Source: a virus (taxonomy: Duplodnaviria; Heunggongvirae; Uroviricota; Caudoviricetes). Taken from it: a stretch of DNA of 36,796 nucleotides. Below, piece after piece: positions 1-32,703 of the stretch; the first letter of the stretch is position 1, and each line of letters opens with the position of its first letter. The position numbers were made by a program, and so were the translations under genes. The DNA lies in IMG/VR virus record IMGVR_UViG_2537562172_000001, positions 1 to 36,796 of that record; one strand, written 5' to 3'. Under the pieces are notes generated by a model. That model was not told the DNA's origin. It saw only the letters and a list, made by a program, of their open reading frames with translations, and made no database searches.

Positions 1-282
1 ATGAAAGCTAAATTTTTTATTGGGATGTGTCTTTGTTTTGTGTCTGTGTTGGGGTACGCAAAGACTAATAAATCTGACAGTCAAATTAAACAAGAAATAA
101 TCAGAGAGTCTATTGAATCTTATCCCGGAAATTGTGCATGCCCTTATAATCATGCAAGAAATGGAAGTCGATGCGGTGGGCGTAGTGCGTACAGCCGTAG
201 CGGAGGATATAACGTGATTTGTTATGCGAGTGATGTTACTGATGAAATGGTTAGGCAATGGAGACAAGAGCATAATAGTTAA
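1..282 (+). CDS. Small secreted cysteine-rich hypothetical protein (93 aa) with N-terminal signal peptide
   Basis: Complete ORF, ATG at base 1 to TAA at 280-282. Hydrophobic N-terminus MKAKFFIGMCLCFVSVLGYA looks like a Sec signal peptide; mature part is Cys/Gly/Arg/Tyr-rich. Followed by a hairpin plus T-run. No family recognised from memory. Confidence 0.5.
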   Translation: MKAKFFIGMCLCFVSVLGYAKTNKSDSQIKQEIIRESIESYPGNCACPYNHARNGSRCGGRSAYSRSGGYNVICYASDVTDEMVRQWRQEHNS

Positions 283-322
283 TTTTAATTAACTATTTTG
301 TTGATAAAGAAATAAAAGAAAA

Positions 323-353
323 CCCGCAGTCTTTACGCTGCGGGTTTGTTGTT
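323..353. terminator. Rho-independent terminator, possibly bidirectional
   Basis: Stem cccgcag / ctgcggg with 7-nt loop, followed by TTTGTTGTT on the plus strand and preceded by an A-rich run (T-run on the minus strand). Sits between the convergent ORF1 and hok-like gene. Confidence 0.6.
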
Positions 354-433
354 CATGTCTGTGAGATAGGGTGCCTTATCGACCTTACCCTGGCAACCGA
401 TTGACGGGGGATTGCTCCCCCGTCGCGGTTTCC

Positions 434-574
434 TTACTGCTTACACTGTAAGAACGCCGCAAACTCCGCTCCCCAGAAGCTCATCCGTATTTCACACAGC
501 GAACCGTGCAGCATCCAGATGATGAGGATTGCCGTCACGCAGAACGTGATGGTCGTAAGCGATTTTTGCGACAT
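434..574 (-). CDS. Hok/Gef-family type I toxin-like small membrane protein (46 aa)
   Basis: Hand translation of the minus strand gives MSQKSLTTITFCVTAILIIWMLHGSLCEIRMSFWGAEFAAFLQCKQ: one hydrophobic helix, then SLCEIR and E-x-AAF with the same spacing as R1 Hok (KSLCEIRYRDGHREVAAF). Under 60 aa, so absent from the ORF track. Confidence 0.6.
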   Translation of the reverse strand: MSQKSLTTITFCVTAILIIWMLHGSLCEIRMSFWGAEFAAFLQCKQ

Positions 575-704
575 AGCACTTGCTCCTTTTTCGGAGAGGT
601 GCTAACCTTTCACTTGTCAAGGTAATGCGGTTAGGGCCTCGGTTAAACAGGGATGTTTTCCGGGGCCTTTCCACATCTGGCCTTCGGGTATTCCCTCCGA
701 CCAT
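492..704 (-). CDS. mok-like overlapping reading frame upstream of and overlapping the hok-like gene
   Basis: 70-aa ORF in a different frame that overlaps the 5' part of the hok-like gene, as mok does in hok/sok loci. Product is basic and low-complexity; assignment is by position only. Confidence 0.3.
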   Translation of the reverse strand: MVGGNTRRPDVERPRKTSLFNRGPNRITLTSERLAPLRKRSKCYVAKIAYDHHVLRDGNPHHLDAARFAV

Positions 705-764
705 CAGCCGAAAGGCACCCGCGCGTAATCTATCGCTTTTTTGTTACTCCGGCAATTCTGCCTG

Positions 765-1025
765 TTAATTCTGAGATAAAGGTAAACTCATCTGATTGTT
801 TCCCCTGTGTGAAGCTGGCAGATCATGCCACGGGATACCTTCTGAAGAGTGAACGCCGGAGGCGTGTTTCGATGTGAATTTATGGAAAGCTTCCAGTGTT
901 GAGAAGCATACGCCGCATTCCAGGTTGTTACACTGGTAATACTTTTGCCGCACGGTGTTTGAATCATTTTCCGGACGACTGGTGCGGATACGGGCAGATG
1001 CGCCACAAAGCGGACAACGGAACAT
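765..1025 (-). CDS. ogr: Ogr-type zinc-finger late transcription activator
   Basis: N-terminus MFRCPLCGASARIRTSR...YYQCNNLECGVCF matches the P2 Ogr C4 zinc-finger pattern (MFHCPLC...HQCQNVNC). Lies directly downstream of D as in P2. Confidence 0.8.
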   Translation of the reverse strand: MFRCPLCGASARIRTSRPENDSNTVRQKYYQCNNLECGVCFSTLEAFHKFTSKHASGVHSSEGIPWHDLPASHRGNNQMSLPLSQN

Positions 1026-4625: not shown

Positions 4626-7419
4626 TATCCGGGTCGCTTTCAGCGCCGTTGACAGACTGACCCGGCCTGCCGAAAACGCCCGCCGCCTGATGGGGCAGTT
4701 TGGTGACTCCATCCAGCGAACGCAGGGGGCGATCAAAAATCTCGAGCGTCAGGCGCGATCATTTGAGCGCGCCCGCGACGCTGTCAGTAAAGCGGATGCG
4801 GGCATCGTGAAAGCACGACGCCAGCTTAACGCCCTTAATCAGTTACAACGCACGGGTACAGTGCTCAGCGAAAAACAACAAAAACTGATGCAGCAGTTAA
4901 GCACCCGGCTTGAACGCCTGAATGAATCGCGTACACGGGAAATTCAGAAAATGCGGGAGCTTGGCGGAGAGCTGAAACGCCACGGCATTTCCCTGACAGG
5001 CAGCGATAACACCATCCAGCAGGCCATCAGACGCACCGAACAGTACAACAACCAGCTTGAACGCGAACGGCAGGCGCTTGCGCGTGTAACGCGGGCGCGT
5101 GAGCGGTATTCGCGCGCGCAGGAAACCGCGGGAAAACTGAAAACAGGTGGTGCGCTGGCAATTGGTGCGGCAGCGGCTGGCGGCTATGCTGCCGGGCGTT
5201 TTTTGCAGCCTGCGATCGGGTTCGGGAAAGAGATGTCCCGCGTTCAGGCACTGACGCGAATCGACAAAAACAGCCCGCAGTTTAAGGCGCTGCGTGAGCA
5301 GGCGTTAAAACTTGGCTCTGAAACGCAGTTCACCGCTGGAGATGCCGCCAGTGGACAGGCATTTCTTGCAATGGCGGGCTTCACACCGCAGGCCATTCAG
5401 GCTGCGCTTCCGGGCGTGCTGAGCATGGCAACGGCTGGCGGTATGGATCTCGGCGAGACGGCGGATATTGGCTCAAATATCCTGACGCAGTTCGGCCTTT
5501 CTGCTGACCAGATGGACCGGGTTGGCGACACGCTCACCGCAGCGTTTACCCGTACCAACACTGACCTTCGCGCACTGGGCGAAACCATGAAATATGCAGG
5601 TCCGGTGGCGGGTAAGCTGGGAATATCGCTGGAGCAGGCCGCAGCGATGGCGGGCGTGCTGGCGAATATGGGTATCAGAGGGAGTGATGCCGGGACGGCA
5701 ATGCGTGCCAGCCTGTCCCGCCTGGTAACACAGCCAAAGGCAACCGCTGATGCTCTGAAAGAGCTGGGGGTGGCTGTCTCTGATGCGAACGGCAAAATGC
5801 GCCCGATGGAGGATGTGCTGGCCGACCTTTATAAAGCCACCCGCAAATACGGGGAAGTTGACCGGGTATCCTTCTTTAAGGACATCGCCGGAGAAGAGGC
5901 TTTCACGTCATTTATGGCCCTCGTTGATGCGGCGGGTAACGGCTCCTTACCCAAACTGAGAAAAGAACTTGAGGGCGCACGCGGTGAGGCTGAACGCACG
6001 GCAAAGGTTATGGCCGACAACCTTGATGGCGACCTGAAATCACTCGGCAGTGCATGGGAAGGGTTGCGCATCCGCATTGCAGATCTGATTGACGGTCCGC
6101 TGCGTTCTGTCACGCAGTGGCTCACGCGGGTGGTCTCAAAGGTGACTGCGCTGGCGCAGGCCCATCCGGCACTGACGCGCCAGTTACTGATAGCGGGAGG
6201 CGCACTGCTGGCGACAACAGCAACGGTTGGTTCGTTGTCGCTGGTTATTGGGGTGCTTTACGGGAAGCTTGCCACCCTGCGTCTTGGTTTTGACATTCTT
6301 ACCCGGTCAATGAATGTCGTCAGGGTGTTGCCTGCGCTGTGGGGAATGGTGACGGGTTCCGTTTCTTTGCTGGGAGGCGCTATCGGGGCGCTGTTCAGTC
6401 CGGTTGGTCTTGTCGTGGCTGCGCTTGCCGGAGCTGCTGTTCTTATCTGGAAATACTGGGATCCCATCAGGGCATTTTTTGCCGGGGTGTTCAGCGGGAT
6501 TATGGAAAGGCTGACCCCGTTGCGCGAAACCTTTGAACGGTTTGGTCCTGTTTTTGACGCAATCGGAAGCGGGATCAGCCAGGTGTTTAACTGGTTTAAA
6601 TCGCTGTTGTCACCGATGGAGTCCAGCAAGGAAACGCTGGATAAATGTACCAGTGCTGGCGAGATATTCGGTAACGTTCTTGGTGGTGCGTTACAACTTG
6701 TTCTGACACCTGCAAAAATGCTACTGGATACGCTGGCGTGGATACTTGAAAAACTTGGCGTCCTTCCGGATGAAGCGGAAAGGGCGCGCAAGAAAATCGA
6801 AGACGCACAGCGTGCGGCCATTCTTCAGGACAAGGTTGCCTTACTTCAGGGGGACCTGGCGAAAATCAATCCGCCGAAGCCTGTGGAAAATGGCAATGGC
6901 ACCGGAGGTGATAAACCCAAAGACAACAAACCGCTTACAGACAGCAATACCGGGACGCTACGCAGACTCAGCAAAATTGCTGATAACACAGGTAAGCTGG
7001 TTGATGAGACGAAAAAACGCATTGGCCCCGGCGATATTGTCTTTAAGAACCTGCCCCGCGCACTTGCTGTTCGTGGGGAGTGGCAGGAGCGGAAGATTGC
7101 GCAGGTCAGTAAGCCTGCCCCCGCAATTAATATCACACCCGTGGTCCCGGCTCCGCTGCCTCCGGCGCTGGTCCCTGTTGTTGCGGCCAGCTCCCGCCCG
7201 GTGGCGGAGGCCATACGATCTCCAGTGGCATCAGTTCCTGTAACTTCCCGTAACCGGGAGCCTGTTGCCTCCGGATTTGGTGGTGAAATTCATGTTCATC
7301 TGCATAACGTTGTTACGCAGAATCCCCGCGAACTGGCGAAACTGGTCGGTGAAATGGTCAGGGCAGAAATGGAACGGCGCGCCCGTGCCGGACGTGGCAG
7401 TTTTTACGATAAAGATTGA
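4576..7419 (+). CDS. T: Tail tape measure protein
   Basis: 947-aa ORF with coiled-coil-rich N-terminal half and Gly/Ala-rich hydrophobic central segments; sits between E/E' and U. True start may be the ATG at 4603 or 4612 rather than the GTG at 4576. Confidence 0.9.
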   Translation: MSGRHFAAGMQTMKTLDIRVAFSAVDRLTRPAENARRLMGQFGDSIQRTQGAIKNLERQARSFERARDAVSKADAGIVKARRQLNALNQLQRTGTVLSEKQQKLMQQLSTRLERLNESRTREIQKMRELGGELKRHGISLTGSDNTIQQAIRRTEQYNNQLERERQALARVTRARERYSRAQETAGKLKTGGALAIGAAAAGGYAAGRFLQPAIGFGKEMSRVQALTRIDKNSPQFKALREQALKLGSETQFTAGDAASGQAFLAMAGFTPQAIQAALPGVLSMATAGGMDLGETADIGSNILTQFGLSADQMDRVGDTLTAAFTRTNTDLRALGETMKYAGPVAGKLGISLEQAAAMAGVLANMGIRGSDAGTAMRASLSRLVTQPKATADALKELGVAVSDANGKMRPMEDVLADLYKATRKYGEVDRVSFFKDIAGEEAFTSFMALVDAAGNGSLPKLRKELEGARGEAERTAKVMADNLDGDLKSLGSAWEGLRIRIADLIDGPLRSVTQWLTRVVSKVTALAQAHPALTRQLLIAGGALLATTATVGSLSLVIGVLYGKLATLRLGFDILTRSMNVVRVLPALWGMVTGSVSLLGGAIGALFSPVGLVVAALAGAAVLIWKYWDPIRAFFAGVFSGIMERLTPLRETFERFGPVFDAIGSGISQVFNWFKSLLSPMESSKETLDKCTSAGEIFGNVLGGALQLVLTPAKMLLDTLAWILEKLGVLPDEAERARKKIEDAQRAAILQDKVALLQGDLAKINPPKPVENGNGTGGDKPKDNKPLTDSNTGTLRRLSKIADNTGKLVDETKKRIGPGDIVFKNLPRALAVRGEWQERKIAQVSKPAPAINITPVVPAPLPPALVPVVAASSRPVAEAIRSPVASVPVTSRNREPVASGFGGEIHVHLHNVVTQNPRELAKLVGEMVRAEMERRARAGRGSFYDKD

Positions 7420-10723: not shown

Positions 10724-13075
10724 TTATACCTGCGATACGTTATACCATGTTCCGTTAATTAACTTTTGTATTGGTCTGAATACTGCCGGATCATCGCCAT
10801 CAACTTCACCGACAATGCCAAGCCCCGTAATTGCATGACCTGACTTTTCATACATCACGCCTTTTTGCATAGTCTGAACAACACGTGTGCCCAGTCGAAT
10901 ATCTCGTACATAGCGAGAATCTGATTCGGCTTTGGTATATGCACCAACATCTCCTGCTGATGGCTTGCGTGTTGTGGTATAAAACTCTGACCAGTCAGCC
11001 TCAAATCCATAACCATCACGCGCTGAACGATAAAAAATACCGCCGTTCCTGTAATTCACGCGGAACTGTACAGCAGGGCAGCTCCCCGTATTCATATTGA
11101 AGTGGAGGATTAATGTCGATGCGCCACTAATGTTTGCGTTATAGACCCCGCTATTCCAGTTCCAGCCAACAGCTTTATCATTTCCGACAGTGCTTCCTGT
11201 TCGCCCTAAAGCAAATGCAGGTTGTTGATTTTTCGTGTTGTAGTCTCGTCGCCAGCCAGGAGCGTAAGCATCACCATGATTGATATAAGTGAATTGAGCG
11301 TTAGTAATTCCGTCACCGCTGGACGTGCTCGGCGTGGTAACGCGTATGGTCATTGCGCCGCGAGTGCCAATAACTTCCACCACAGCACCTGCAAGACAAA
11401 TATTTCCGCAACCTGTATCTGTAATGACCTTATTATTTGCATAAGCCCATGAGCCTTTGCACATCCAGTAAGGATGGTTAAATGCCCCCTGACTCTCCAG
11501 CCACGAAATAAATTGCGCGGTTGTCCAGACCTGATTATCGCCACCAATATCCAGCCATGCGCTATATGCGCGGCAGGCCCCAATATTTTTGGTGAAGGTA
11601 TCTTTTCCTGGAATATCTGCGCCGTTCTGGTTTTTCTGTAATGCGCCAGAAGCCTGATTTACCGTTTTCTGTAAACCGAGGTATTCGATAACGGCGGCAA
11701 CGGTAGATTTCGCAAGAATATCCCGCCCGACTTTTGTCAGAGTTGCCAGGCTGGCGACATCATTCCCCGTAAAATACGGAAACCTGTCTGCCGCAGTATC
11801 AAGCCCGGCCAGCGCCGTCAGGGTGGCATCTTTCGGTTGCTTACCCGCAAGCGCGTTAGTCATGGTGGTCGCAAAATTCGGGTCGTTTCCCAGCGCCGCC
11901 GCTAACTCGTTCAGCGTATTCAGTGCGTCAGGTGACGAATCTACAAGGGCGGCAATCGCAGCCATAACGAAAGCCGTGCTTGCGATTTGGGTATTATTCG
12001 TTCCCTGTCGCGCAGTTGGCGTTGTTGGCGTTCCGGTCAGCGCAGGACTGTTTAAGGGCGCTTTCTTGTTCGTTTCATCCATTACCACCTTAACCGCTTT
12101 CGATGTCGCGGCCAGTGTTTCAGACGTGCTGTTGGTGGCACTACTGAGCTGGACTATCCCTTTTTGTGCCGTCGTGGCGTCCTGAGCGGTATATTTTGCG
12201 TTAGCAAGGTCATACGCGGCCTTTACTGCTTTCGGCGTTGCAGCCTGCGTTTCAGACGTGCTGTTGGTGGCACTACTGAGCTGGACAAGACCTTTTCGCG
12301 CTGTAGTGGCGTCCTGTGCGGTATATTTCCCGTTAGCAAGGTCATAGGCTGCCTTGACCGCTTTCGGCGTTGCGGCCAGTGCTTCAGACGTGCTGTTGGT
12401 GGCGCTACTGAGCTGGACAAGACCTTTTCGCGCTGTAGTGGCGTCCTGTGCGGTATATTTCCCGTTAGCAAGGTCATAGGCTGCCTTGACCGCTTTCGGC
12501 GTTGCGGCCAGTGCTTCAGACGTGCTGTTGGTGGCGCTACTGAGTTGAACAAAGCCTTTTGCGGTCAGCGAGGCGTCCGGGTGACGTCGTGACTGTTCGT
12601 GCTCTGAGATTTTGTCATCCACATATTTGCGGGTTGCCAGAACCACAGACGGGTCGATTTTCAGCGTGATGGCTTCGGTGTTCGTGACAACCAGAATCAT
12701 GCGGATAGTCTGGGTGCGTCCACTGCCTTCCTGCAACTGCGGTTTGTACGTTTCCGGGCAGTTCGCCACCGCAATGAGTACGCCTTCATCATCATAAAGC
12801 CCAATCTCACGGATCCAGAATCCTCCCTCGTTTTCAGGGATAATTTGCTCCGCAATAATCTGGCTCTGATTGTTAGGGTCAACGCTCAGAAGATTCAGCG
12901 GTGCAATGCGTTTCTGGTTAATCAGTTTTGTCTGTGCCGGGTCTGGTGTCGGTAATACACCATTCGCATCACCAACGGCCATTTGCGTCAGATTCAGCTT
13001 ACTGCCGAGCATCGTCGCGTTAGCCAGTCGTGCCGCGCCCTGATTAGTCAGAATGGCGTAGTATTTCACTGTCAT
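10724..13075 (-). CDS. H: Tail fibre protein (constant N-terminal part plus currently expressed variable C-terminal part)
   Basis: 783 aa with internal ~45-aa tandem repeats ([42 protein letters not shown]) and a gix-like site inside the gene at about 11665..11691. C-terminus ...[11 protein letters not shown]. Confidence 0.9.
11665..11691. repeat. gix/cix-like inversion crossover site (left inverted repeat, inside H)
   Basis: ttttctgtaaaccgaggtattcgataa; its reverse complement ttatcgaatacctcggtttacagaaaa matches the 8598..8627 site at most positions. Confidence 0.7.
12105..12580. repeat. In-frame tandem repeats (~135 bp unit, about 3.5 copies) within the constant part of H
   Basis: Near-identical 135-bp units are visible directly in the sequence, for example two adjacent copies starting near 12247 and 12382. 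Confidence 0.7.
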
Positions 13076-27963: not shown

Positions 27964-28077
27964 CGTTTACAGGATTCTGAAATCCCGCTCTTGCCTGTTT
28001 TGTGCGCGCTTCATATATCGCGGCACGTTTTTTGCTCATTTACGGGATTTGTGAATCCCGTTTCTGTCTGTTTTTTG
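27964..28077. repeat. parC-like centromere/operator candidate: two ~40-bp direct repeats, each containing an inverted repeat
   Basis: Copy 1 cgtttacaggattctgaaatcccgctcttgcctgttttgtg and copy 2 catttacgggatttgtgaatcccgtttctgtctgttttttg lie upstream of parM. Copy 2 sits within the last codons of gene A. Confidence 0.45.
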
Positions 28078-30833
28078 TTTCCACTGGTCAGGCTACCCCG
28101 CAGCAGGTCTGCTTTGCGGCGGGCGCGTTCAGTTGTTTCACTGATTCTCTGTGCGTGCTCTGCGTCGCGGATGGCGCGTAGCATGTCAGAAAGTACGGTA
28201 ACGGGTGTTTTCATGGTGTTCTGGTCTTGCTGAAGTGTGGATGCCAGGCGTGCGGCGGCTTCAGGGGCTGATGCCCCTAGTTGTTCCAGATAGCTGGCGA
28301 CCGGGTTATGGCGGATCTCCGTGCTGCTTACGCCGTGATTACGACTCAGGCGTTGCCAGAGCTGCGTGATTCGGCTGTCCGGGCGGGTATCCGGTTTGCG
28401 TACAATTTCAAATCCCTGCGGTGCAATGATGCTGCCGTCAACGTACAGGCTGCCGCCCCGTAACAGGTGCTGCATCTGCTGTTCACCGATATGCAGGCCG
28501 AGAGATTCAGCAGACTCCCGCCATTCTTTAGCGAGTAACTCGTGGTTATCAGGCAAAGGCCGTGGCTGTTTGCGGCTCTGTGTCCAGTTCTGCATTTCAT
28601 CACTGCTGTTTTTTGCCTGTTTGTCACGAAGCGAACGCATCAGCGCCCGGCGTTCGTGCCGTTTCAGTGAGCGCATCCATTCGTTCACTTCAACGCCGTC
28701 AGGGAGCTGCGGCCACGGTGCTGGCCGTTCTTTCGGCTGTTCTGTCCCGTTGTTGTCCGTTTCCTGTACACGGGGACAGTTATTGCCACGAGTCCAAGGG
28801 GCGGCAGGGCCGCCCTGAAGGTCAAAACCATTTTCACGGGCGCTGTCTTCCGCTTCCGGTTTACGTCTTACCAGCTTCCAGTTATCCGGGTGCGTGCACA
28901 CGCGGGAAGACTCCCCAATGAGCGGCGACCAGATCCCGTAAATCTGTACGCTCTGTTCGCCGTAATCGTTCAGCTCATCTGCGAGGTCGTAGGCGGTGCG
29001 AATCAGGTAGTCTTTGCGTGGAACAAGTACGCCGCCCTGTTTCTCAATGTAGGTGGCAAAACATCCGGCATCAGCGGCAGCAAGAACCGCGTCCATTGCG
29101 TCATCCTTCAGCCGTTGCGGGCCTTCCGGGTTGCGTGCCATCTGGCTGGCAAGGCGGCGGAGTTCACGCCACACCTGACGGGAGGGGATACCAAAGAACT
29201 GGAACTGGCGGACACGGTGAAGGCGCGCCCAGCCGATGGCGCGTTCCACGCTCTCGGCCATTGATTTTCCGGTTTCGTGGTCAACGCGTGGCTTGCCCGT
29301 TTTCGGGTCGATGCCATCCACGGCGCGGCTGTCCAGGTTTTTTCCGATGTAGGTGGCGATGTAGCTGGTTGGCGTGCCTTTTGAGCCGTCGACGTACTCC
29401 GCCTTAAAACGCGGAGTAATATCATCGCCCAGCTCGTGACGATCTTCCTGAATGGCAATATCGCGGGTGTGGGACACAATGGTGTCGATTTCTTCCGGAT
29501 GTGCAAAGACCATCATATGCCAGTGCACGGTGCCGTCATGGTGAGGCTCCACCGTGCGGATGCCATACCAGCGCAGGCCGTCGCGGTTCAGTTTTTTGCG
29601 GACCGCCGCAAAAAACGTGTTAACCAGGTAATCGCTGGAGTCGCGCATGGTGGCCCCGTTCCATTTGGGATTCGGATGACCGTTCTCTGTTGTGGCGTGG
29701 TATTTTGACGGGCAGGTGACAGTCAGAAACACCGCTTTGTCGCCACGGGCTTCGGCCAGAAGTTCCAGCCCTTTCATGGTAGCCATCATTTCTGCCTTAC
29801 GGTGAACCGGGTTACTTACTCCCGCGTAATACACCGTCTCGAGATCAATCGTGAACCCGTCTTCGTTTTCCAGCATGAAACTTTTCAGGAAATCGCGTGT
29901 TTTCTCGCGCTGTGCGCGAAACTCGCTTAACGCGTCCTGGCTCAGATAGGGCGATGTTTTTCTGGAAACCAGACAGGCGGCGCGGAGTTGTTCTTCTCTC
30001 CACTCGCAACGTAACAGCCACAGTTTGCGTTTCCACCATTCTGCACAGGTCAGGCGAAGGATTGCGCCCGGCAGCAGCTCCGTGTCCGGTTCGTTCCTCC
30101 GGTCTTTGTCTGTTGTCAGTGCGTCATAATGTGGAGGCATGGCGTGCAGGTGTAACGCCATGCGGGCCAGCATCTGATACGCCTTCAGGGTTACATCCAT
30201 GGTCAGCTCGCCATCGGTCGAGCCAAAGCCATCGCAGAGTTTTTCGAAGGTGCTGCTGAACATCGCCGCCGTCATGGTGGCCAGCGTCTGTATCTGGTGT
30301 TTGTTGAGCTGCGGCAGGTAAAGCAAATCGTCCAGGCGTTCGCGTCCGGCAAGGGAGCGATAACCCGGTGTCAGCCAGCGGTGATCGGTGCGCTCCAGAC
30401 GTTCGAATATTTTGCGCAGGGTCCCACGCGCATAGCGTTCTGCCTGCCTGGCGTTTTTTCCTTTCTGACGATCGGCTTCCTGTTTTTTGCGCAGGAAGGA
30501 GAGGTGGCGAATAAGCGGATCTCGCAGATAGGACGGCAGCAGGCGCAGCGAGGCCATGGCTTCATCCACCGCGCCGCGTGCCTGTTTTCTGGCGTCTCCT
30601 GCCAGTGTGATGGTTTTGTCCTGTTTTTCCTGTGCGTCCAGGCTTTTATTAATCAGGTTGCCCAGCGGCGTGGCGGAGAACGCCGCATCAGCCATTTCCT
30701 GGCGGCGCTCGTTCTCTACCCGGTAGGCATCCAGCCAGGAGGAAAGCGCGGATTCAGGAGCGGGGATCCCCGTTCCTTCACGCCCCACTGCGTGGCGCGG
30801 TTGTTGCCAGTCCCTGATGTACTCCGTTGACAT
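28011..30833 (-). CDS. A: Replication gene A protein (rolling-circle replication initiator endonuclease)
   Basis: Contains VFLTVTCPSKYH, RTVEPHHDGTVHWHMMVF and YIATYIGKNLD, paralleling P2 gpA motifs (ITLTAPSKYH, VVEPHHDGTPHWHMMLF, YIAKYISKNIDG). 940 aa from the first Met; start uncertain. Confidence 0.9.
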   Translation of the reverse strand: MSTEYIRDWQQPRHAVGREGTGIPAPESALSSWLDAYRVENERRQEMADAAFSATPLGNLINKSLDAQEKQDKTITLAGDARKQARGAVDEAMASLRLLPSYLRDPLIRHLSFLRKKQEADRQKGKNARQAERYARGTLRKIFERLERTDHRWLTPGYRSLAGRERLDDLLYLPQLNKHQIQTLATMTAAMFSSTFEKLCDGFGSTDGELTMDVTLKAYQMLARMALHLHAMPPHYDALTTDKDRRNEPDTELLPGAILRLTCAEWWKRKLWLLRCEWREEQLRAACLVSRKTSPYLSQDALSEFRAQREKTRDFLKSFMLENEDGFTIDLETVYYAGVSNPVHRKAEMMATMKGLELLAEARGDKAVFLTVTCPSKYHATTENGHPNPKWNGATMRDSSDYLVNTFFAAVRKKLNRDGLRWYGIRTVEPHHDGTVHWHMMVFAHPEEIDTIVSHTRDIAIQEDRHELGDDITPRFKAEYVDGSKGTPTSYIATYIGKNLDSRAVDGIDPKTGKPRVDHETGKSMAESVERAIGWARLHRVRQFQFFGIPSRQVWRELRRLASQMARNPEGPQRLKDDAMDAVLAAADAGCFATYIEKQGGVLVPRKDYLIRTAYDLADELNDYGEQSVQIYGIWSPLIGESSRVCTHPDNWKLVRRKPEAEDSARENGFDLQGGPAAPWTRGNNCPRVQETDNNGTEQPKERPAPWPQLPDGVEVNEWMRSLKRHERRALMRSLRDKQAKNSSDEMQNWTQSRKQPRPLPDNHELLAKEWRESAESLGLHIGEQQMQHLLRGGSLYVDGSIIAPQGFEIVRKPDTRPDSRITQLWQRLSRNHGVSSTEIRHNPVASYLEQLGASAPEAAARLASTLQQDQNTMKTPVTVLSDMLRAIRDAEHAQRISETTERARRKADLLRGSLTSGNKKQTETGFTNPVNEQKTCRDI

Positions 30834-31277: not shown

Positions 31278-31505
31278 TTAATGGAGTTTGTTTTGCTGCT
31301 GGATGAGATCCTGAAGAGACAGGAGGTCTTCCGCCAGATAGCTGAATACAGCGGCGCAGTAGTCGGCTGAAATAGTGCTGTTGAGTCTGTGCAATGTGTT
31401 GGATTGCATGATAAAGGCGATGTGTGCAGCGCGGGTGAGTCTGCGATCGATTTCAGTCTGGATGTGACGACGTGCAGCGTATGCGCGCTGTTTGCGGTTT
31501 GCCAT
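31278..31505 (-). CDS. Hypothetical early-operon protein (75 aa)
   Basis: ORF MANRKQRAYAARRHIQTEIDRRL... in the early-operon orientation. No family recognised. Confidence 0.5.
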   Translation of the reverse strand: MANRKQRAYAARRHIQTEIDRRLTRAAHIAFIMQSNTLHRLNSTISADYCAAVFSYLAEDLLSLQDLIQQQNKLH

Positions 31506-31684
31506 GGTGTGGCCTCTCTGTTAGTTAGTTTTGAAAACTCACCATCCAGAGGTTCCAAGCTCGGGGTGGTGAGACGTACAGGGTTGGAACTACCGGCTAA
31601 CAGAGGACCCGGCCCAGCTGATGCTGGCCCTGTACGCCCCACCATAATTCTGACGCGAAAAAGACGTGGCGATACGGTACGCAC

Positions 31685-31704
31685 AAAAAAACCGCTGGCG
31701 CGGT
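31685..31704 (-). terminator. Intrinsic terminator (minus strand) downstream of the SPFH module, inside the early operon
   Basis: On the minus strand: AACCGC-gcca-GCGGTT followed by a run of about 6-8 T. Confidence 0.5.
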
Positions 31705-31872
31705 TGTGCGCTCTGTTAGTCTGCGGGGTTCCAATCCCGGCACCCGTTTTATGAGGTGCAGCGGGAATGTAACCTGACTGATTGCGGCATGGCAAGCGGT
31801 TTTTTTGTGAGAACGGCATACTAAAAAATCCTGATACTGCTCCGGCCAGCGGTTTTCACTGGCCGGATTTAA

Positions 31873-32703
31873 TTACTTCACGGGAACGAACGGAACAGCG
31901 GTGTTACTGGTCATGTATTGCGGCAGCGTGCCGTTCCATTTGTTGATCGCTTCCAGCTCCATAACGCCGGGATTCTGGCGCAGAGCTTCACCGCGTAAAC
32001 GAATGGCGTCGGCTTCAGCCTGGGCTTTTGTGCGAATGGCATCAGCCTGTCCGGCAGCTTCTGCGCGCAACATGTTGGCTTCTGCTTCGCGTTGCTTGAC
32101 TTCCTGTTCGCGTTGCAGGGTTTTCTGGTTTGCCGTGACTTTGGCGTTAATGCTGTCGATAACGGTTGGCGGATATTCCGGTTTACCGACATAAGAGAGG
32201 CTCATGACCTGAATGCCGATGGGGGTCATCTCTTCCTGAATATCTTTAAGTGCTGAATCCAGCAGTTCAGACTTACCACCGTCGATAAACTTATCGGTGG
32301 TCATTTTGCTGGCCAGTCGGTTGAGTGCATCGGCAATCTTCTGGCGCAGGTCAGTGTCGGTAATGTCATCCACGCCTTTGCGGTAGGTCTGAAACACTGT
32401 GGTAACTTTGGATGGATCAACCTTGTAAGCCACGCCGATGTGATAGCCGATGGTTGTGCCGTCACTCATCTGAAAGCTGAACGGCTCATCGTAGGTCTTC
32501 ATTTGTTTGAAGGTCGGGAAGATGTAAACCTCGGTATTCCAGCCAGTCCAGTAGCGGCCAACGCCAACCACTTCGCCAACGCCTTTGTCGTCGCCCAGCT
32601 TGTTGACTTTGATGCCCACATTACCTGGCTCAACGCGATCGCAACCAACCAGCAGGATGGCGGCAAAAAGCGGGATAATCTGAAAGAGTCTGAATTTCTT
32701 CAT
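31873..32703 (-). CDS. SPFH/band-7 (stomatin/prohibitin/flotillin-like) domain lipoprotein
   Basis: 276 aa. N-terminus MKKFRLFQIIPLFAAILLVGC has a lipobox (LVGC). Followed by a band-7-like core and a C-terminal Ala/Glu/Arg/Gln-rich coiled-coil segment (REQEVKQREAEANMLRAEAAGQADAIRTKAQAEADAIRLRGEA). Confidence 0.8.
   Translation of the reverse strand: MKKFRLFQIIPLFAAILLVGCDRVEPGNVGIKVNKLGDDKGVGEVVGVGRYWTGWNTEVYIFPTFKQMKTYDEPFSFQMSDGTTIGYHIGVAYKVDPSKVTTVFQTYRKGVDDITDTDLRQKIADALNRLASKMTTDKFIDGGKSELLDSALKDIQEEMTPIGIQVMSLSYVGKPEYPPTVIDSINAKVTANQKTLQREQEVKQREAEANMLRAEAAGQADAIRTKAQAEADAIRLRGEALRQNPGVMELEAINKWNGTLPQYMTSNTAVPFVPVK

What the first reader, a model, noticed from the sequence alone, without database searches (positions are those of the whole stretch)
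380..760. Hok/Gef-family type I toxin with mok-like overlapping frame abutting the ogr end of the phage
A 46-aa ORF absent from the ORF track encodes one TM helix followed by SLCEIR and E-x-AAF at Hok spacing. A 70-aa ORF in another frame overlaps its 5' region like mok. The inferred mRNA leader (about 600..760) would reach the ogr stop at 765, so the locus either belongs to the element or sits exactly at the integration junction. A Sok-like antisense RNA would be expected on the plus strand here but cannot be delimited by eye.
Basis: partly seen in the sequence, partly recalled or inferred. Interest (0 to 1): 0.55.

Follow-up and report, generated by a model that had tools for sequence, protein, structure and literature searches.

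The report
Known Hok/Sok-type toxin module in P2-like prophage
This is a real but already catalogued Hok/Sok-type toxin and antisense-RNA module carried as cargo by a P2-like prophage; the one unusual point is that the "mok" leader frame seen here is not conserved in its closest relatives.

Summary
The 46-aa ORF (574..434, minus strand) is a Hok/Gef toxin: Pfam 29 bits against a cutoff of 22, PHROG 251 E=1e-22. RefSeq already annotates this peptide as "Hok/Gef family protein". The locus occurs in about 1,545 of 5,426 complete E. coli genomes. A peptide identical at 45 of 46 residues (cluster 72) is among 45 homologs tested in a 2026 preprint and is not among the three it lists as non-toxic.

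The module travels with ogr at different chromosomal sites and in sequenced P2-like phages such as P88. The probable att core lies about 290 bp left of the window, so hok is prophage cargo, not a junction gene.

I delimited the RNA parts:
- hok promoter at 755..727, with +1 near 720
- a 15-bp 5'-3' fold-back (720..706 with 384..369)
- a hairpin that sequesters the hok Shine-Dalgarno sequence (SD)
- a plus-strand Sok-like RNA (about 612..671) whose -10 TAACCT is invariant in 67 of 67 relatives

The 70-aa "mok-like" ORF exists. However, 34 of 67 related variants have no leader ORF reaching hok, and Hok is under equal purifying selection with or without one. It is probably fortuitous.

The locus is not the published hokW-sokW. 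Interest is low.

The parts
727..755 (-). hok promoter: -35 TTGCCG (755..750), 17-nt spacer, -10 TAGATT (732..727); the -35 box begins 10 nt after the ogr stop codon
   Evidence: Read directly from the sequence. The position is homologous to the promoters upstream of +1 in hokC and R1. A -10 of the form TA(G/A/C)A(T/A)T and a TTGNNN -35 box at a 17-18-nt spacer are present in 66 of 67 relatives (that table's spacer and -10 columns are offset by one base). The generic promoter scan did not call it.
311..720 (-). Inferred full-length hok mRNA, about 410 nt: +1 at G720, ending at the bidirectional terminator hairpin 347..320 plus U-tract 319..311
   Evidence: Rfam RF01794 model position 1 aligns to 720. 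The same model's position 1 falls at the 5' end of the hokC and R1-type leaders. Homology with the Stx-phage and plasmid copies spans only 741..369, which is the functional unit. The ends have not been mapped experimentally.
706..720 (-). tac-like 5' element GGGUGCCUUUCGGCU; pairs with fbi in the full-length RNA and alternatively with the ucb-like element in the processed RNA
   Evidence: MFE fold, RNAalifold and pair counts.
369..384 (-). fbi-like 3' element GGUCGAUAAGGCACCC; forms 15 bp with one bulge with 720..706
   Evidence: The full-length fold gives -156.2 kcal/mol, z=-7.0, with this helix present. RNAalifold predicts it independently on 39 sequences. Of the cells, 96.7% are paired against 45% or less in slid controls. 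The 3' strand shows G-C/G-U exchanges, and the divergent Salmonella copy shows a compensated change.
662..673 (-). ucb-like box (U)GGAAAGGCCCC: pairs with the GAGG region in the closed form and is complementary to tac (10 bp, U4 bulged) in the open form
   Evidence: (Rfam consensus structure). The columns are invariant, so covariation cannot test the pairing.
637..640 (-). GAGG, at the position of the mok Shine-Dalgarno sequence of R1 and hokC; three of its four bases are invariant and the A is kept in more than 90% of the 39 sequences, but no start codon follows it
   Evidence: It pairs with GGCC of the ucb-like box or with GCCUC at 600..596.
574..604 (-). Hairpin sequestering the hok SD (GGAG 586..583) and ending at the hok AUG: GCAC/GUGC plus CUCC/GGAG
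   Evidence: helix 7, 93% paired. Column pair 128/152 is G-C in 31 sequences, G-U in 7 and A-U in 1, and the A-U is the window itself.
434..574 (-). hok CDS, 46 aa plus stop
   Evidence: Pfam PF01848 29 bits against a cutoff of 22. PHROG 251 80.8 bits. RefSeq WP_000078923.1 'Hok/Gef family protein'. Median dN/dS 0.19.
402..425 (-). GC-rich stem-loop just after the hok stop; probable protective 3' hairpin of the processed mRNA
   Evidence: In one search it is helix 15: 99.7% paired, with 4 of 9 pairs changed on both sides, making it the best-supported helix. The R1 analogy is from PMC9841398.
580..608 (+). Sok-like promoter: -35 TTGCTC (580..585), 17-nt spacer, -10 TAACCT (603..608); the -35 box overlaps the hok SD on the other strand
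   Evidence: TAACCT is found in 67 of 67 relatives, and TTGNNN at 17-18 nt in 67 of 67. The position is the same as the Sok promoters of R1 (TTGCGC/TATCCT) and hokC relative to the annotated sokC. It is a weak consensus match and the generic scan did not call it.
612..671 (+). Predicted Sok-like antisense RNA, about 56-60 nt: a variable 5' tail of about 20 nt starting ACUUG, then the hairpin AGGGCCUCGG...CCGGGGCCU and UUUCC
   Evidence: The fold gives -27 kcal/mol, z=-3.5. The hairpin is conserved in 39 sequences. Its length and position match sokC, which is 59 nt. No expression data are available.
492..704 (-). 70-aa 'mok-like' ORF; present but probably fortuitous
   Evidence: No family hit.
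765..1025 (-). ogr/Delta-like zinc-finger late activator gene; upstream neighbour on the same strand, with no terminator between it and hok
   Evidence: Pfam PF04606 52.4 bits. Terminator scan.

Best explanation
The region 755..311 (minus strand), together with 580..671 (plus strand), is an intact hok/sok-type type I toxin-antitoxin module. A P2-like prophage carries it as accessory cargo between ogr and the attachment site.

Shown here:
- The ORF is a Hok/Gef peptide under purifying selection.
- The mRNA has the family's hallmark architecture. The 5' end folds back onto a 3' element. A GC-rich 3' stem-loop follows the stop codon. The hok SD sits in a hairpin.
- A promoter-like element and a hairpin for a roughly 60-nt antisense RNA are conserved opposite the leader.
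- The module moves as a unit between P2-like phages, Stx phages and plasmids.

Inferred by analogy with R1 hok/sok:
- The full-length mRNA is stable, closed and untranslatable.
- Slow 3' trimming removes the fbi element and opens the leader.
- The short-lived Sok-like RNA pairs with roughly +50..+107 of the leader and triggers RNase III cleavage.
- When transcription of the locus stops (loss of the prophage, or host shut-off by an infecting phage), Sok decays. Hok is then made and depolarises the inner membrane.

Inferred, at about 50% confidence: in this subfamily hok translation does not depend on a mok leader ORF. The Sok-like RNA does not cover the hok SD. It would therefore act through the conserved GAGG/ucb/dcb structural switch, or a ribosome standby site, together with RNase III decay.
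For: - Toxin identity.
- Toxicity of a peptide identical at 45 of 46 residues (72_1621) and of the Stx-phage variant (72_1589): bioRxiv 10.1101/2025.08.07.668861, Table S2 and text.
- Leader homology: RF01794 gives 41.8 bits, E=7e-8, full model length on the hok strand, against 118 bits for hokC and 87 bits for the R1 type.
- Fold-back helix and other helices: plus the compensated change in L134.
- Sok promoter and hairpin conservation.
- Purifying selection: dN/dS 0.19 in the hok frame against 1.82 in the overlapping frame.
- Phage membership: the same hok-ogr block sits at ytfP and at ihfA; it occurs in the phages P88, Chuche, P884B11 and 500465-2; the probable att core is outside the window.
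- No conserved mok: with dN/dS 0.22 in loci lacking a leader ORF against 0.21 in loci having one.
- R1 mechanism: PMC9841398.
Against: - There are no transcript data for either RNA.
- The Rfam score is below the family's gathering score (41.8 against 59).
- The Sok -10 matches only 3 of 6 consensus positions. Its invariance could partly reflect pairing of AGGUUAG with CUAAC in the mRNA.
- The 5' strand of the fold-back helix was fixed by the search pattern used to collect relatives, so only the 3' strand and one divergent copy test it.
- Thermodynamic modelling of SD accessibility with and without Sok gave no consistent switch.
- In R1, mok translation is mandatory for hok translation, and this window does have an ORF in the right frame.
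Confidence: 0.8

Rival explanations
1. It is a canonical R1-style locus. In this particular allele the overlapping frame (704..492, or an internal start such as TTG 620 or AUU 626) is a working mok whose translation is needed to open the hok start site. Sok would act by blocking mok translation.
For: The frame is open from the 5' end through the hok start, and it is the same relative frame as R1 mok. GAGG at 640..637 sits where the mok SD sits in R1 and hokC. Mok is mandatory in R1. Of the 67 relatives, 33 have some leader ORF in this frame.
Against: ATG 704 lies inside the tac element and has no SD. No ATG, GTG or TTG lies 5-10 nt after GAGG: TTG 620 is 16 nt away and AUU 626 is a rare start. 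Start positions differ among the variants that have an ORF (+17, +45, +72, +101). Thirty-four of 67 variants, including the 94%-identical P88 allele, have none. Hok is equally constrained in both groups.
Confidence: 0.3
2. It is a decaying, silent relic like the chromosomal hok loci of E. coli K-12. The peptide can kill if forced, but the native locus no longer expresses it.
For: Chromosomal hokA, hokB and hokC did not mediate killing in earlier work, as cited in the preprint's introduction. K-12 hokA is broken by IS150. One Salmonella diarizonae copy has a mutated SD.
Against: The promoter, SD, start, ORF, fold-back, 3' hairpin and Sok promoter are all intact here. dN/dS is 0.19. The identical peptide is found on more than 1,000 contigs. 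The module is kept in many independent phage and plasmid backgrounds.
Confidence: 0.1
3. It is a host gene or a junction remnant at the integration site, not part of the phage.
For: It is the last recognisable conserved block next to ogr, and homology with other P2-like phages stops at window position 314.
Against: The same block follows ogr at an unrelated site, ihfA, and is present in packaged phage genomes. A 15-bp direct repeat flanks the whole element beyond the 93-aa ORF, and that ORF is itself a phage family.
Confidence: 0.02

Closest known systems
Hok 'cluster 72' of Escalera-Maurer et al. 2026 (bioRxiv 10.1101/2025.08.07.668861); RefSeq WP_000078923.1/WP_000078916.1 'Hok/Gef family protein'; PHROG 251; gp52 of phage P88
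   Same: It is the same peptide, identical or differing at 1 of 46 residues, with the same position next to ogr in P2-like phages. Two cluster members were cloned for toxicity assays and are not among the three non-toxic ones.
   Different: Nothing differs at the protein level. Those sources annotate only the CDS. The mRNA ends, the fold-back, the Sok-like RNA and the mok question are not annotated, and the preprint says it left Mok and Sok aside.
hok/sok (parB) of plasmid R1
   Same: Both have a small single-helix toxin with SLCEIR...E-x-AAF. Both have a leader of about 150-170 nt matching RF01794, a 5'-3' tac/fbi fold-back, ucb/GAGG/dcb boxes in the same order, and a 3' stem-loop. Both have an antisense promoter whose -35 box overlaps the hok SD.
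   Different: Peptide identity is only 30%, and there is no blastn-level DNA similarity. No AUG follows the GAGG box and no mok ORF is conserved. The carrier is a prophage rather than a plasmid.
hokA of E. coli (NCBIfam NF007290)
   Same: It is the best-scoring named Hok: 43% identity, with both cysteines hard-coded as in HokA.
   Different: The score of 34 bits is far below the equivalog cutoff of 89. The leader is not alignable to K-12 hokA, which is disrupted by IS150.
hokW-sokW of Stx2 prophage Sp5 (Takada et al. 2021, PMC8621323)
   Same: It is also a prophage-borne hok/sok module. It was shown to be a type I TA that partly depends on RNase III and Hfq and helps lysis after induction.
   Different: It is a different locus. 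HokW is 51 aa and starts MKQQKAM, with a leader beginning GGGUGCUUGAGG (hokC/D-like; primers). The window's relative in Sp5/VT2-Sakai is a second, unannotated copy next to lom, 81% identical. The database label 'MokW-like host killing' is a family label, not an orthology statement.

Membership tests
Hok/Gef toxin family (Pfam PF01848) | Profile match above the curated gathering score | tested here: met
   29 bits against a cutoff of 22, E=8e-7, profile positions 7-42 of 42. PHROG 251 scores 80.8 bits over the full length.
Hok/Gef toxin family (Pfam PF01848) | Peptide of about 50 aa with one N-terminal transmembrane helix and the family's conserved residues (M1, C16, T18, L30, C31, E32, E41 in the preprint's numbering) | tested here: met
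   The window has M1, C12, T14, L26, C27, E28 and E37, plus the second cysteine C44. The hydropathy mean reaches 2.0.
Hok/Gef toxin family (Pfam PF01848) | Kills or arrests the cell when over-expressed | not testable with these tools
   Literature only. 72_1621 (45 of 46 residues identical) and 72_1589 were among 45 homologs tested, and only three other sequences were non-toxic.
HokA equivalog (NCBIfam NF007290) | Score at or above the equivalog cutoff | tested here: not met
   34.1 bits against a cutoff of 89. The Hok-family subfamily model NF007279 scores 21.6 against 73.
[quoted passage not shown] | Leader matches the curated hok-leader covariance model (Rfam RF01794) | tested here: inconclusive
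   41.8 bits, E=7e-8, model positions 1-157 of 157, correct strand and register, but below the gathering score of 59. hokC scores 118 and the R1 type 87. Relatives of the window score 33-48.
[quoted passage not shown] | Long-range tac/fbi pairing of the mRNA 5' end with a 3' element | tested here: met
   There are 15 bp (720..706 with 384..369) in the MFE fold, z=-7.0. It is also in the RNAalifold consensus. Of the cells, 96.7% are paired against 45% or less when slid. There is a compensated change in L134. Caveat: the 5' strand was fixed by the retrieval pattern.
[quoted passage not shown] | Alternative ucb / SD / dcb pairings that open the leader after 3' processing | tested here: inconclusive
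   All three complementarities exist: GGCC(C)CGG/CCGAGGCC, tac/GGAAAGGCCCC and GAGGC/GCCUC. The columns are almost invariant, so covariation is uninformative. The accessibility modelling was inconsistent.
[quoted passage not shown] | A mok leader ORF that starts after the GAGG box and is translated at least up to the hok SD | tested here: not met
   The window has an open frame but no start 5-10 nt after GAGG. P88, the Stx phages and the IncI1 plasmid copy are closed in all three frames, even allowing near-cognate starts. Thirty-four of 67 variants have no such ORF.
[quoted passage not shown] | Antisense Sok gene with its own promoter opposite the leader | tested here: met
   This is met at sequence level only. 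The -10 TAACCT and a TTGNNN -35 box at 17-18 nt are present in 67 of 67 relatives. The 3' hairpin is conserved. The position is as for the annotated sokC.
[quoted passage not shown] | Unstable Sok RNA, stable hok mRNA, 3' processing, RNase III cleavage of the duplex | not testable with these tools
   This needs Northern blots or RACE after rifampicin in wild-type and rnc backgrounds.
hokW-sokW of Sp5 | Orthology to the published 51-aa HokW locus | tested here: not met
   The published primers encode MKQQKAM and a GGGUGCUUGAGG leader. The window matches a different, lom-adjacent place in VT2-Sakai.
Accessory cargo ('moron') of a P2-like prophage | Lies inside the element's boundaries, travels with it, and is dispensable for the phage core | tested here: met
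   It sits between ogr and the probable att core. It is found at two chromosomal sites and in phage genomes. The window is a P2-type element with gpD, ogr, gpA, cox, a repressor and int. Absence of hok from some P2-like phages was not tested here.

The most novel reading that the evidence does not exclude
The 46-aa 'cluster 72' hok subfamily, found in P2-like and Stx prophages and some plasmids, would work without any mok leader peptide. It keeps the GAGG box, the ucb and dcb boxes and the Sok target of the R1 system but has lost, or never had, the coupled ORF. The Sok-like RNA stops about 30 nt short of the hok SD. It would then control hok through an RNA conformational switch or by blocking a ribosome standby site at GAGG, as IstR-1 does for tisB, together with RNase III decay. 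This would be a second regulatory mode within the textbook hok/sok family.
Probability: 0.4. Interest if true: 0.45.

Novelty: already known. Interest (0 to 1): 0.2.

Why it matters
As a gene find it adds little. RefSeq already names the peptide, a 2026 survey catalogued and tested its cluster, and hok enrichment in prophages is established.

Two practical points do follow:
- The antisense RNA and mRNA elements of this very common module, present in about a quarter of complete E. coli genomes, fall below Rfam's threshold and so go unannotated.
- The phage-database label "MokW-like host killing" and the name hokW invite confusion with a different, experimentally studied locus.

The lack of a conserved mok frame, with Hok equally constrained either way, would matter to type I toxin-antitoxin specialists if confirmed. 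Mok coupling is considered mandatory in the R1 paradigm, and the recent survey explicitly left Mok and Sok unanalysed.

Tried and rejected
- The generic sigma-70 scan found neither promoter. Both were placed by homology and conservation instead.
With an alignment it returned only 5 species-representative loci, three of which look like contamination, so it gave no host-range gain.
- K-12 hokA was tested as the closest named locus. It is IS150-disrupted and barely alignable, so it was rejected as an ortholog.
- I first assumed the Stx-phage relative was hokW-sokW. Reading the paper's primers showed it is a different locus.
- Modelling of SD accessibility in full-length, truncated and Sok-blocked RNAs gave no consistent switch across 8 variants, so it is not used as evidence.
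- PADLOC has no model matching the peptide.
- Literature searches for hok together with ogr or P2-like phages found no description of this locus.
- dN/dS in the overlapping frame (1.82) is not used against mok, because the Mok protein sequence is not expected to be constrained. The test that counts is the presence of a start and an open frame.

Full report
**Observation.** On the minus strand, 574..434 encodes the 46-aa peptide MSQKSLTTITFCVTAILIIWMLHGSLCEIRMSFWGAEFAAFLQCKQ. A 70-aa ORF at 704..492 overlaps its start one base ahead, and the ogr/Delta zinc-finger gene ends at 765.
- The peptide passes Pfam's Hok/Gef gathering score: 29 against 22 bits, E=8e-7.
- It matches PHROG 251 over its full length, E=1e-22.
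- It has one strongly hydrophobic segment.
- SLCEIR and E-F-A-A-F have the same spacing as in R1 Hok.

**Already in the databases.**
- The exact peptide is on more than 1,000 public contigs under the name "Hok/Gef family protein". It is annotated in the near-identical E. coli ETEC1732 chromosome as WP_000078923.1, next to ogr.
- DNA of 280..780 matches 1,545 of 5,426 complete E. coli genomes, and 1,243 of these cover at least 80% of the query.
- A 2026 preprint that catalogued 32,532 hok loci places this type in its cluster 72.
- The preprint cloned 72_1621 (45 of 46 residues identical to the window's peptide) and 72_1589 (the Stx-phage variant) for induction assays. Of 45 homologs tested, it lists only three other sequences as non-toxic.
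- The same work shows hok is enriched in prophages.

**Belongs to the phage, not the junction.**
- The hok-ogr block follows ytfP in the window's lineage but ihfA in strain 2D.
- It is present in sequenced P2-like phages: P88, Chuche, PhiR44_2, P884B11 and 500465-2, at 94-98% identity.
- The window is a P2-type element with gpD, ogr, gpA, cox, an HTH repressor and an integrase.
- In ETEC1732 a 15-bp direct repeat, CGCCACCCGAAGGTG, lies just after the ytfP stop and again near the 3' end of int by ppa. The expected number of chance 15-mer matches between the two stretches is about 5e-4.
- The probable prophage end is therefore about 290 bp left of window position 1.
- Between it and hok lies the 93-aa ORF (1..282). 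This ORF is a phage family, phrog_27544, E=2e-48. It occurs in only 9 of 5,426 genomes, always as ytfP-ORF-hok-ogr.
- Homology with Stx phages (81%) and with IncI1 and other plasmids (87%) is confined to 741..369 or 748..349. That is promoter to 3' element, which marks the mobile functional unit.

**Anatomy of the mRNA.**
- The Rfam family called "sok" (RF01794) is in fact modelled on the hok leader strand. In K-12 it hits the hokC strand from +1 to the hokC start, while sokC is annotated opposite.
- In the window it aligns end to end to 720..561 on the hok strand: 41.8 bits, E=7e-8, below the gathering score of 59. hokC scores 118, the R1 type 87, and the window's relatives 33-48.
- This puts +1 at G720. 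Upstream are TTGCCG (755..750), a 17-nt spacer and TAGATT (732..727), with equivalents in 66 of 67 relatives.
- The 355-nt RNA 720..366 folds to -156.2 kcal/mol, z=-7.0. Positions +1..+15 pair with +337..+352 (384..369), giving 15 bp with one bulge.
- RNAalifold on 39 non-redundant relatives finds the same helix.
- Pair counting gives 96.7% paired cells for this helix, against 45% or less for the structure as a whole when the partners are slid, with G-C/G-U exchanges on the 3' strand.
- A divergent S. diarizonae copy has a compensated 5' CGAU / 3' AUCG.
- Caveat: relatives were retrieved with the pattern GGGTGCCTTTCGGCT, so the 5' strand could not vary.
- The stem-loop after the stop codon (425..402) is the best-supported helix: 99.7% paired, with 4 of 9 pairs changed on both sides. 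It corresponds to the protective 3' hairpin of processed R1 hok mRNA.
- The hok SD (GGAG, 586..583) sits in a hairpin (604..574). Its outer pair is G-C in 31 sequences, G-U in 7 and A-U in the window alone.
- The ucb-like box (673..662), GAGG (640..637) and the dcb-like GCACCUC (602..596) occur in the R1 order with the expected alternative complementarities. They are nearly invariant, so covariation cannot test them.

**Sok-like RNA.**
- On the plus strand, TTGCTC (580..585), a 17-nt spacer and TAACCT (603..608) occupy the position of the R1 and hokC Sok promoters.
- TAACCT is present in 67 of 67 relatives, and a TTGNNN box at 17-18 nt in 67 of 67.
- The downstream sequence starts with the conserved ACUUG (612..616). 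It continues with a variable tail of about 20 nt, which is what a specificity-determining pairing region would look like.
- It ends in a conserved hairpin, AGGGCCUCGG...CCGGGGCCU, followed by UUUCC, ending at about 671.
- Its size and position match the 59-nt sokC.
- This is a sequence-level prediction, and no expression data were available.
- The RNA would pair with about +50..+107 of the leader and does not reach the hok SD.

**The mok question.**
- In R1 and hokC an AUG follows the GAGG box by 8 nt and opens a frame through the hok start. In R1 its translation up to the hok SD is mandatory.
- Here the equivalent position reads CGC. The 70-aa ORF begins at an AUG inside the tac element with no SD. 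The only in-frame alternatives are AUU 626 and UUG 620.
- In the 94%-identical P88 allele, in the Stx-phage alleles and in an IncI1 plasmid allele, all three frames are closed between about +100 and +135. Only the plasmid allele has even a near-cognate start after the last stop, an AUA at +131 beside the hok SD.
- Among 67 unique variants, 34 have no ATG, GTG or TTG ORF that reaches within 15 nt of the hok start. The rest start at different places: +17, +45, +72 or about +101.
- Hok is nevertheless under purifying selection. Median dN/dS is 0.19 overall, 0.22 among loci without a leader ORF and 0.21 among those with one.
- I conclude that the window's mok-like ORF is probably fortuitous and that this subfamily may translate hok without mok. 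This is an inference. The pairs are not phylogenetically independent, and RNA structure also constrains synonymous sites.

**Name confusion.**
- Phage databases label the peptide "MokW-like host killing".
- The experimentally studied hokW-sokW of Sp5 encodes a 51-aa MKQQKAM peptide with a hokC/D-like leader.
- The window's relative in Sp5/VT2-Sakai is a second, unannotated locus beside lom.
- Nor is the peptide a HokA equivalog: 34 against a cutoff of 89 bits, although HokA is the closest named Hok at 43% identity.

**Mechanism and function.**
- Most likely both RNAs are made constitutively in the lysogen. The closed full-length mRNA is inert. 3' trimming opens it, and the Sok-like RNA pairs with the opened leader and causes decay.
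- Once transcription of the locus ceases, Sok disappears first and Hok kills the cell.
- The benefit could be prophage retention, abortive infection against lytic phages, or help with lysis after induction as reported for hokW-sokW. My data cannot separate these, and PADLOC has no model for the peptide.
- There is no terminator between ogr and the hok promoter, so ogr transcripts probably read into hok. The effect of this is unknown.

**Verdict.** This is a genuine, intact and very common hok/sok-type module that is already annotated and catalogued, so interest is low. The one point worth a specialist's attention is the apparent absence of a conserved mok frame in this subfamily.

Noticed in passing
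window 1..282 (+): A 93-aa ORF with a signal-peptide-like N-terminus and many Cys and Gly residues. It has no Pfam or NCBIfam hit but matches phrog_27544 (unknown function, E=2e-48). It is present in only 9 of 5,426 complete E. coli genomes, always between ytfP and hok, and lies inside the probable prophage boundary. It is a rare end-of-phage cargo gene.
   Followed up: partly
window 31562..31759 (-): Rfam hits above gathering score to C4 antisense RNA (78.5 bits) and isrK (72.4 bits), side by side. They lie between an SPFH/Band-7 gene (31873..32703) and replication gene A (28011..30833). A 75-aa ORF downstream (31278..31505) weakly matches the 'Derepression protein' family. This looks like a P1/P7-style C4 RNA immunity cassette inside a P2-type early region.
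   Followed up: partly
window 12088..12560: Three tandem copies of a 132-bp unit, 86-87% identical over 209 nt. It is probably a repeat within a tail or tail-fibre gene.
   Followed up: no
L027 4318..4671 and 5040..5395; L107 5545..5897 and about 5999 onward (IMG/VR contigs): Two complete hok loci of this subfamily (MPQKT-type peptides) sit in tandem, 450-720 bp apart. Their Sok-target loop sequences differ, as if each copy had its own antisense specificity.
   Followed up: no
L134 2374..2710 (Salmonella enterica subsp. diarizonae): A divergent copy with 70% peptide identity. It has an 18-nt deletion in the 5' hairpin and the hok SD changed from GGAG to CGAG, so it may be decaying. Its fold-back helix is still maintained by a compensated change.
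   Followed up: partly
L006 1201..1575 (VT2-Sakai/Sp5, AP000363 44532..44906): The Stx2 prophage Sp5 carries an unannotated hok locus of this subfamily next to lom, in addition to the published hokW-sokW. Studies of hokW deletion mutants therefore still contain a second hok module.
   Followed up: partly
L130, L132, L133 (GTDB representative genomes): Near-identical copies of the E. coli/Salmonella phage sequence turn up in contigs labelled Planococcaceae MAG, Vagococcus sp. and Xanthomonas pisi. They are most likely enterobacterial contamination of those assemblies.
   Followed up: no
window 721..767 (-): No terminator lies between the ogr stop (765) and the hok -35 box (755). Late ogr transcripts probably read through the whole hok locus to the bidirectional terminator at 347..320, which also serves the 93-aa ORF on the other strand.
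   Followed up: no
L137 4547..8255 (E. coli ETEC1732): In the closest genome, the integrase of the same prophage is split by an IS66-family insertion. That copy is probably locked in the chromosome.
   Followed up: no
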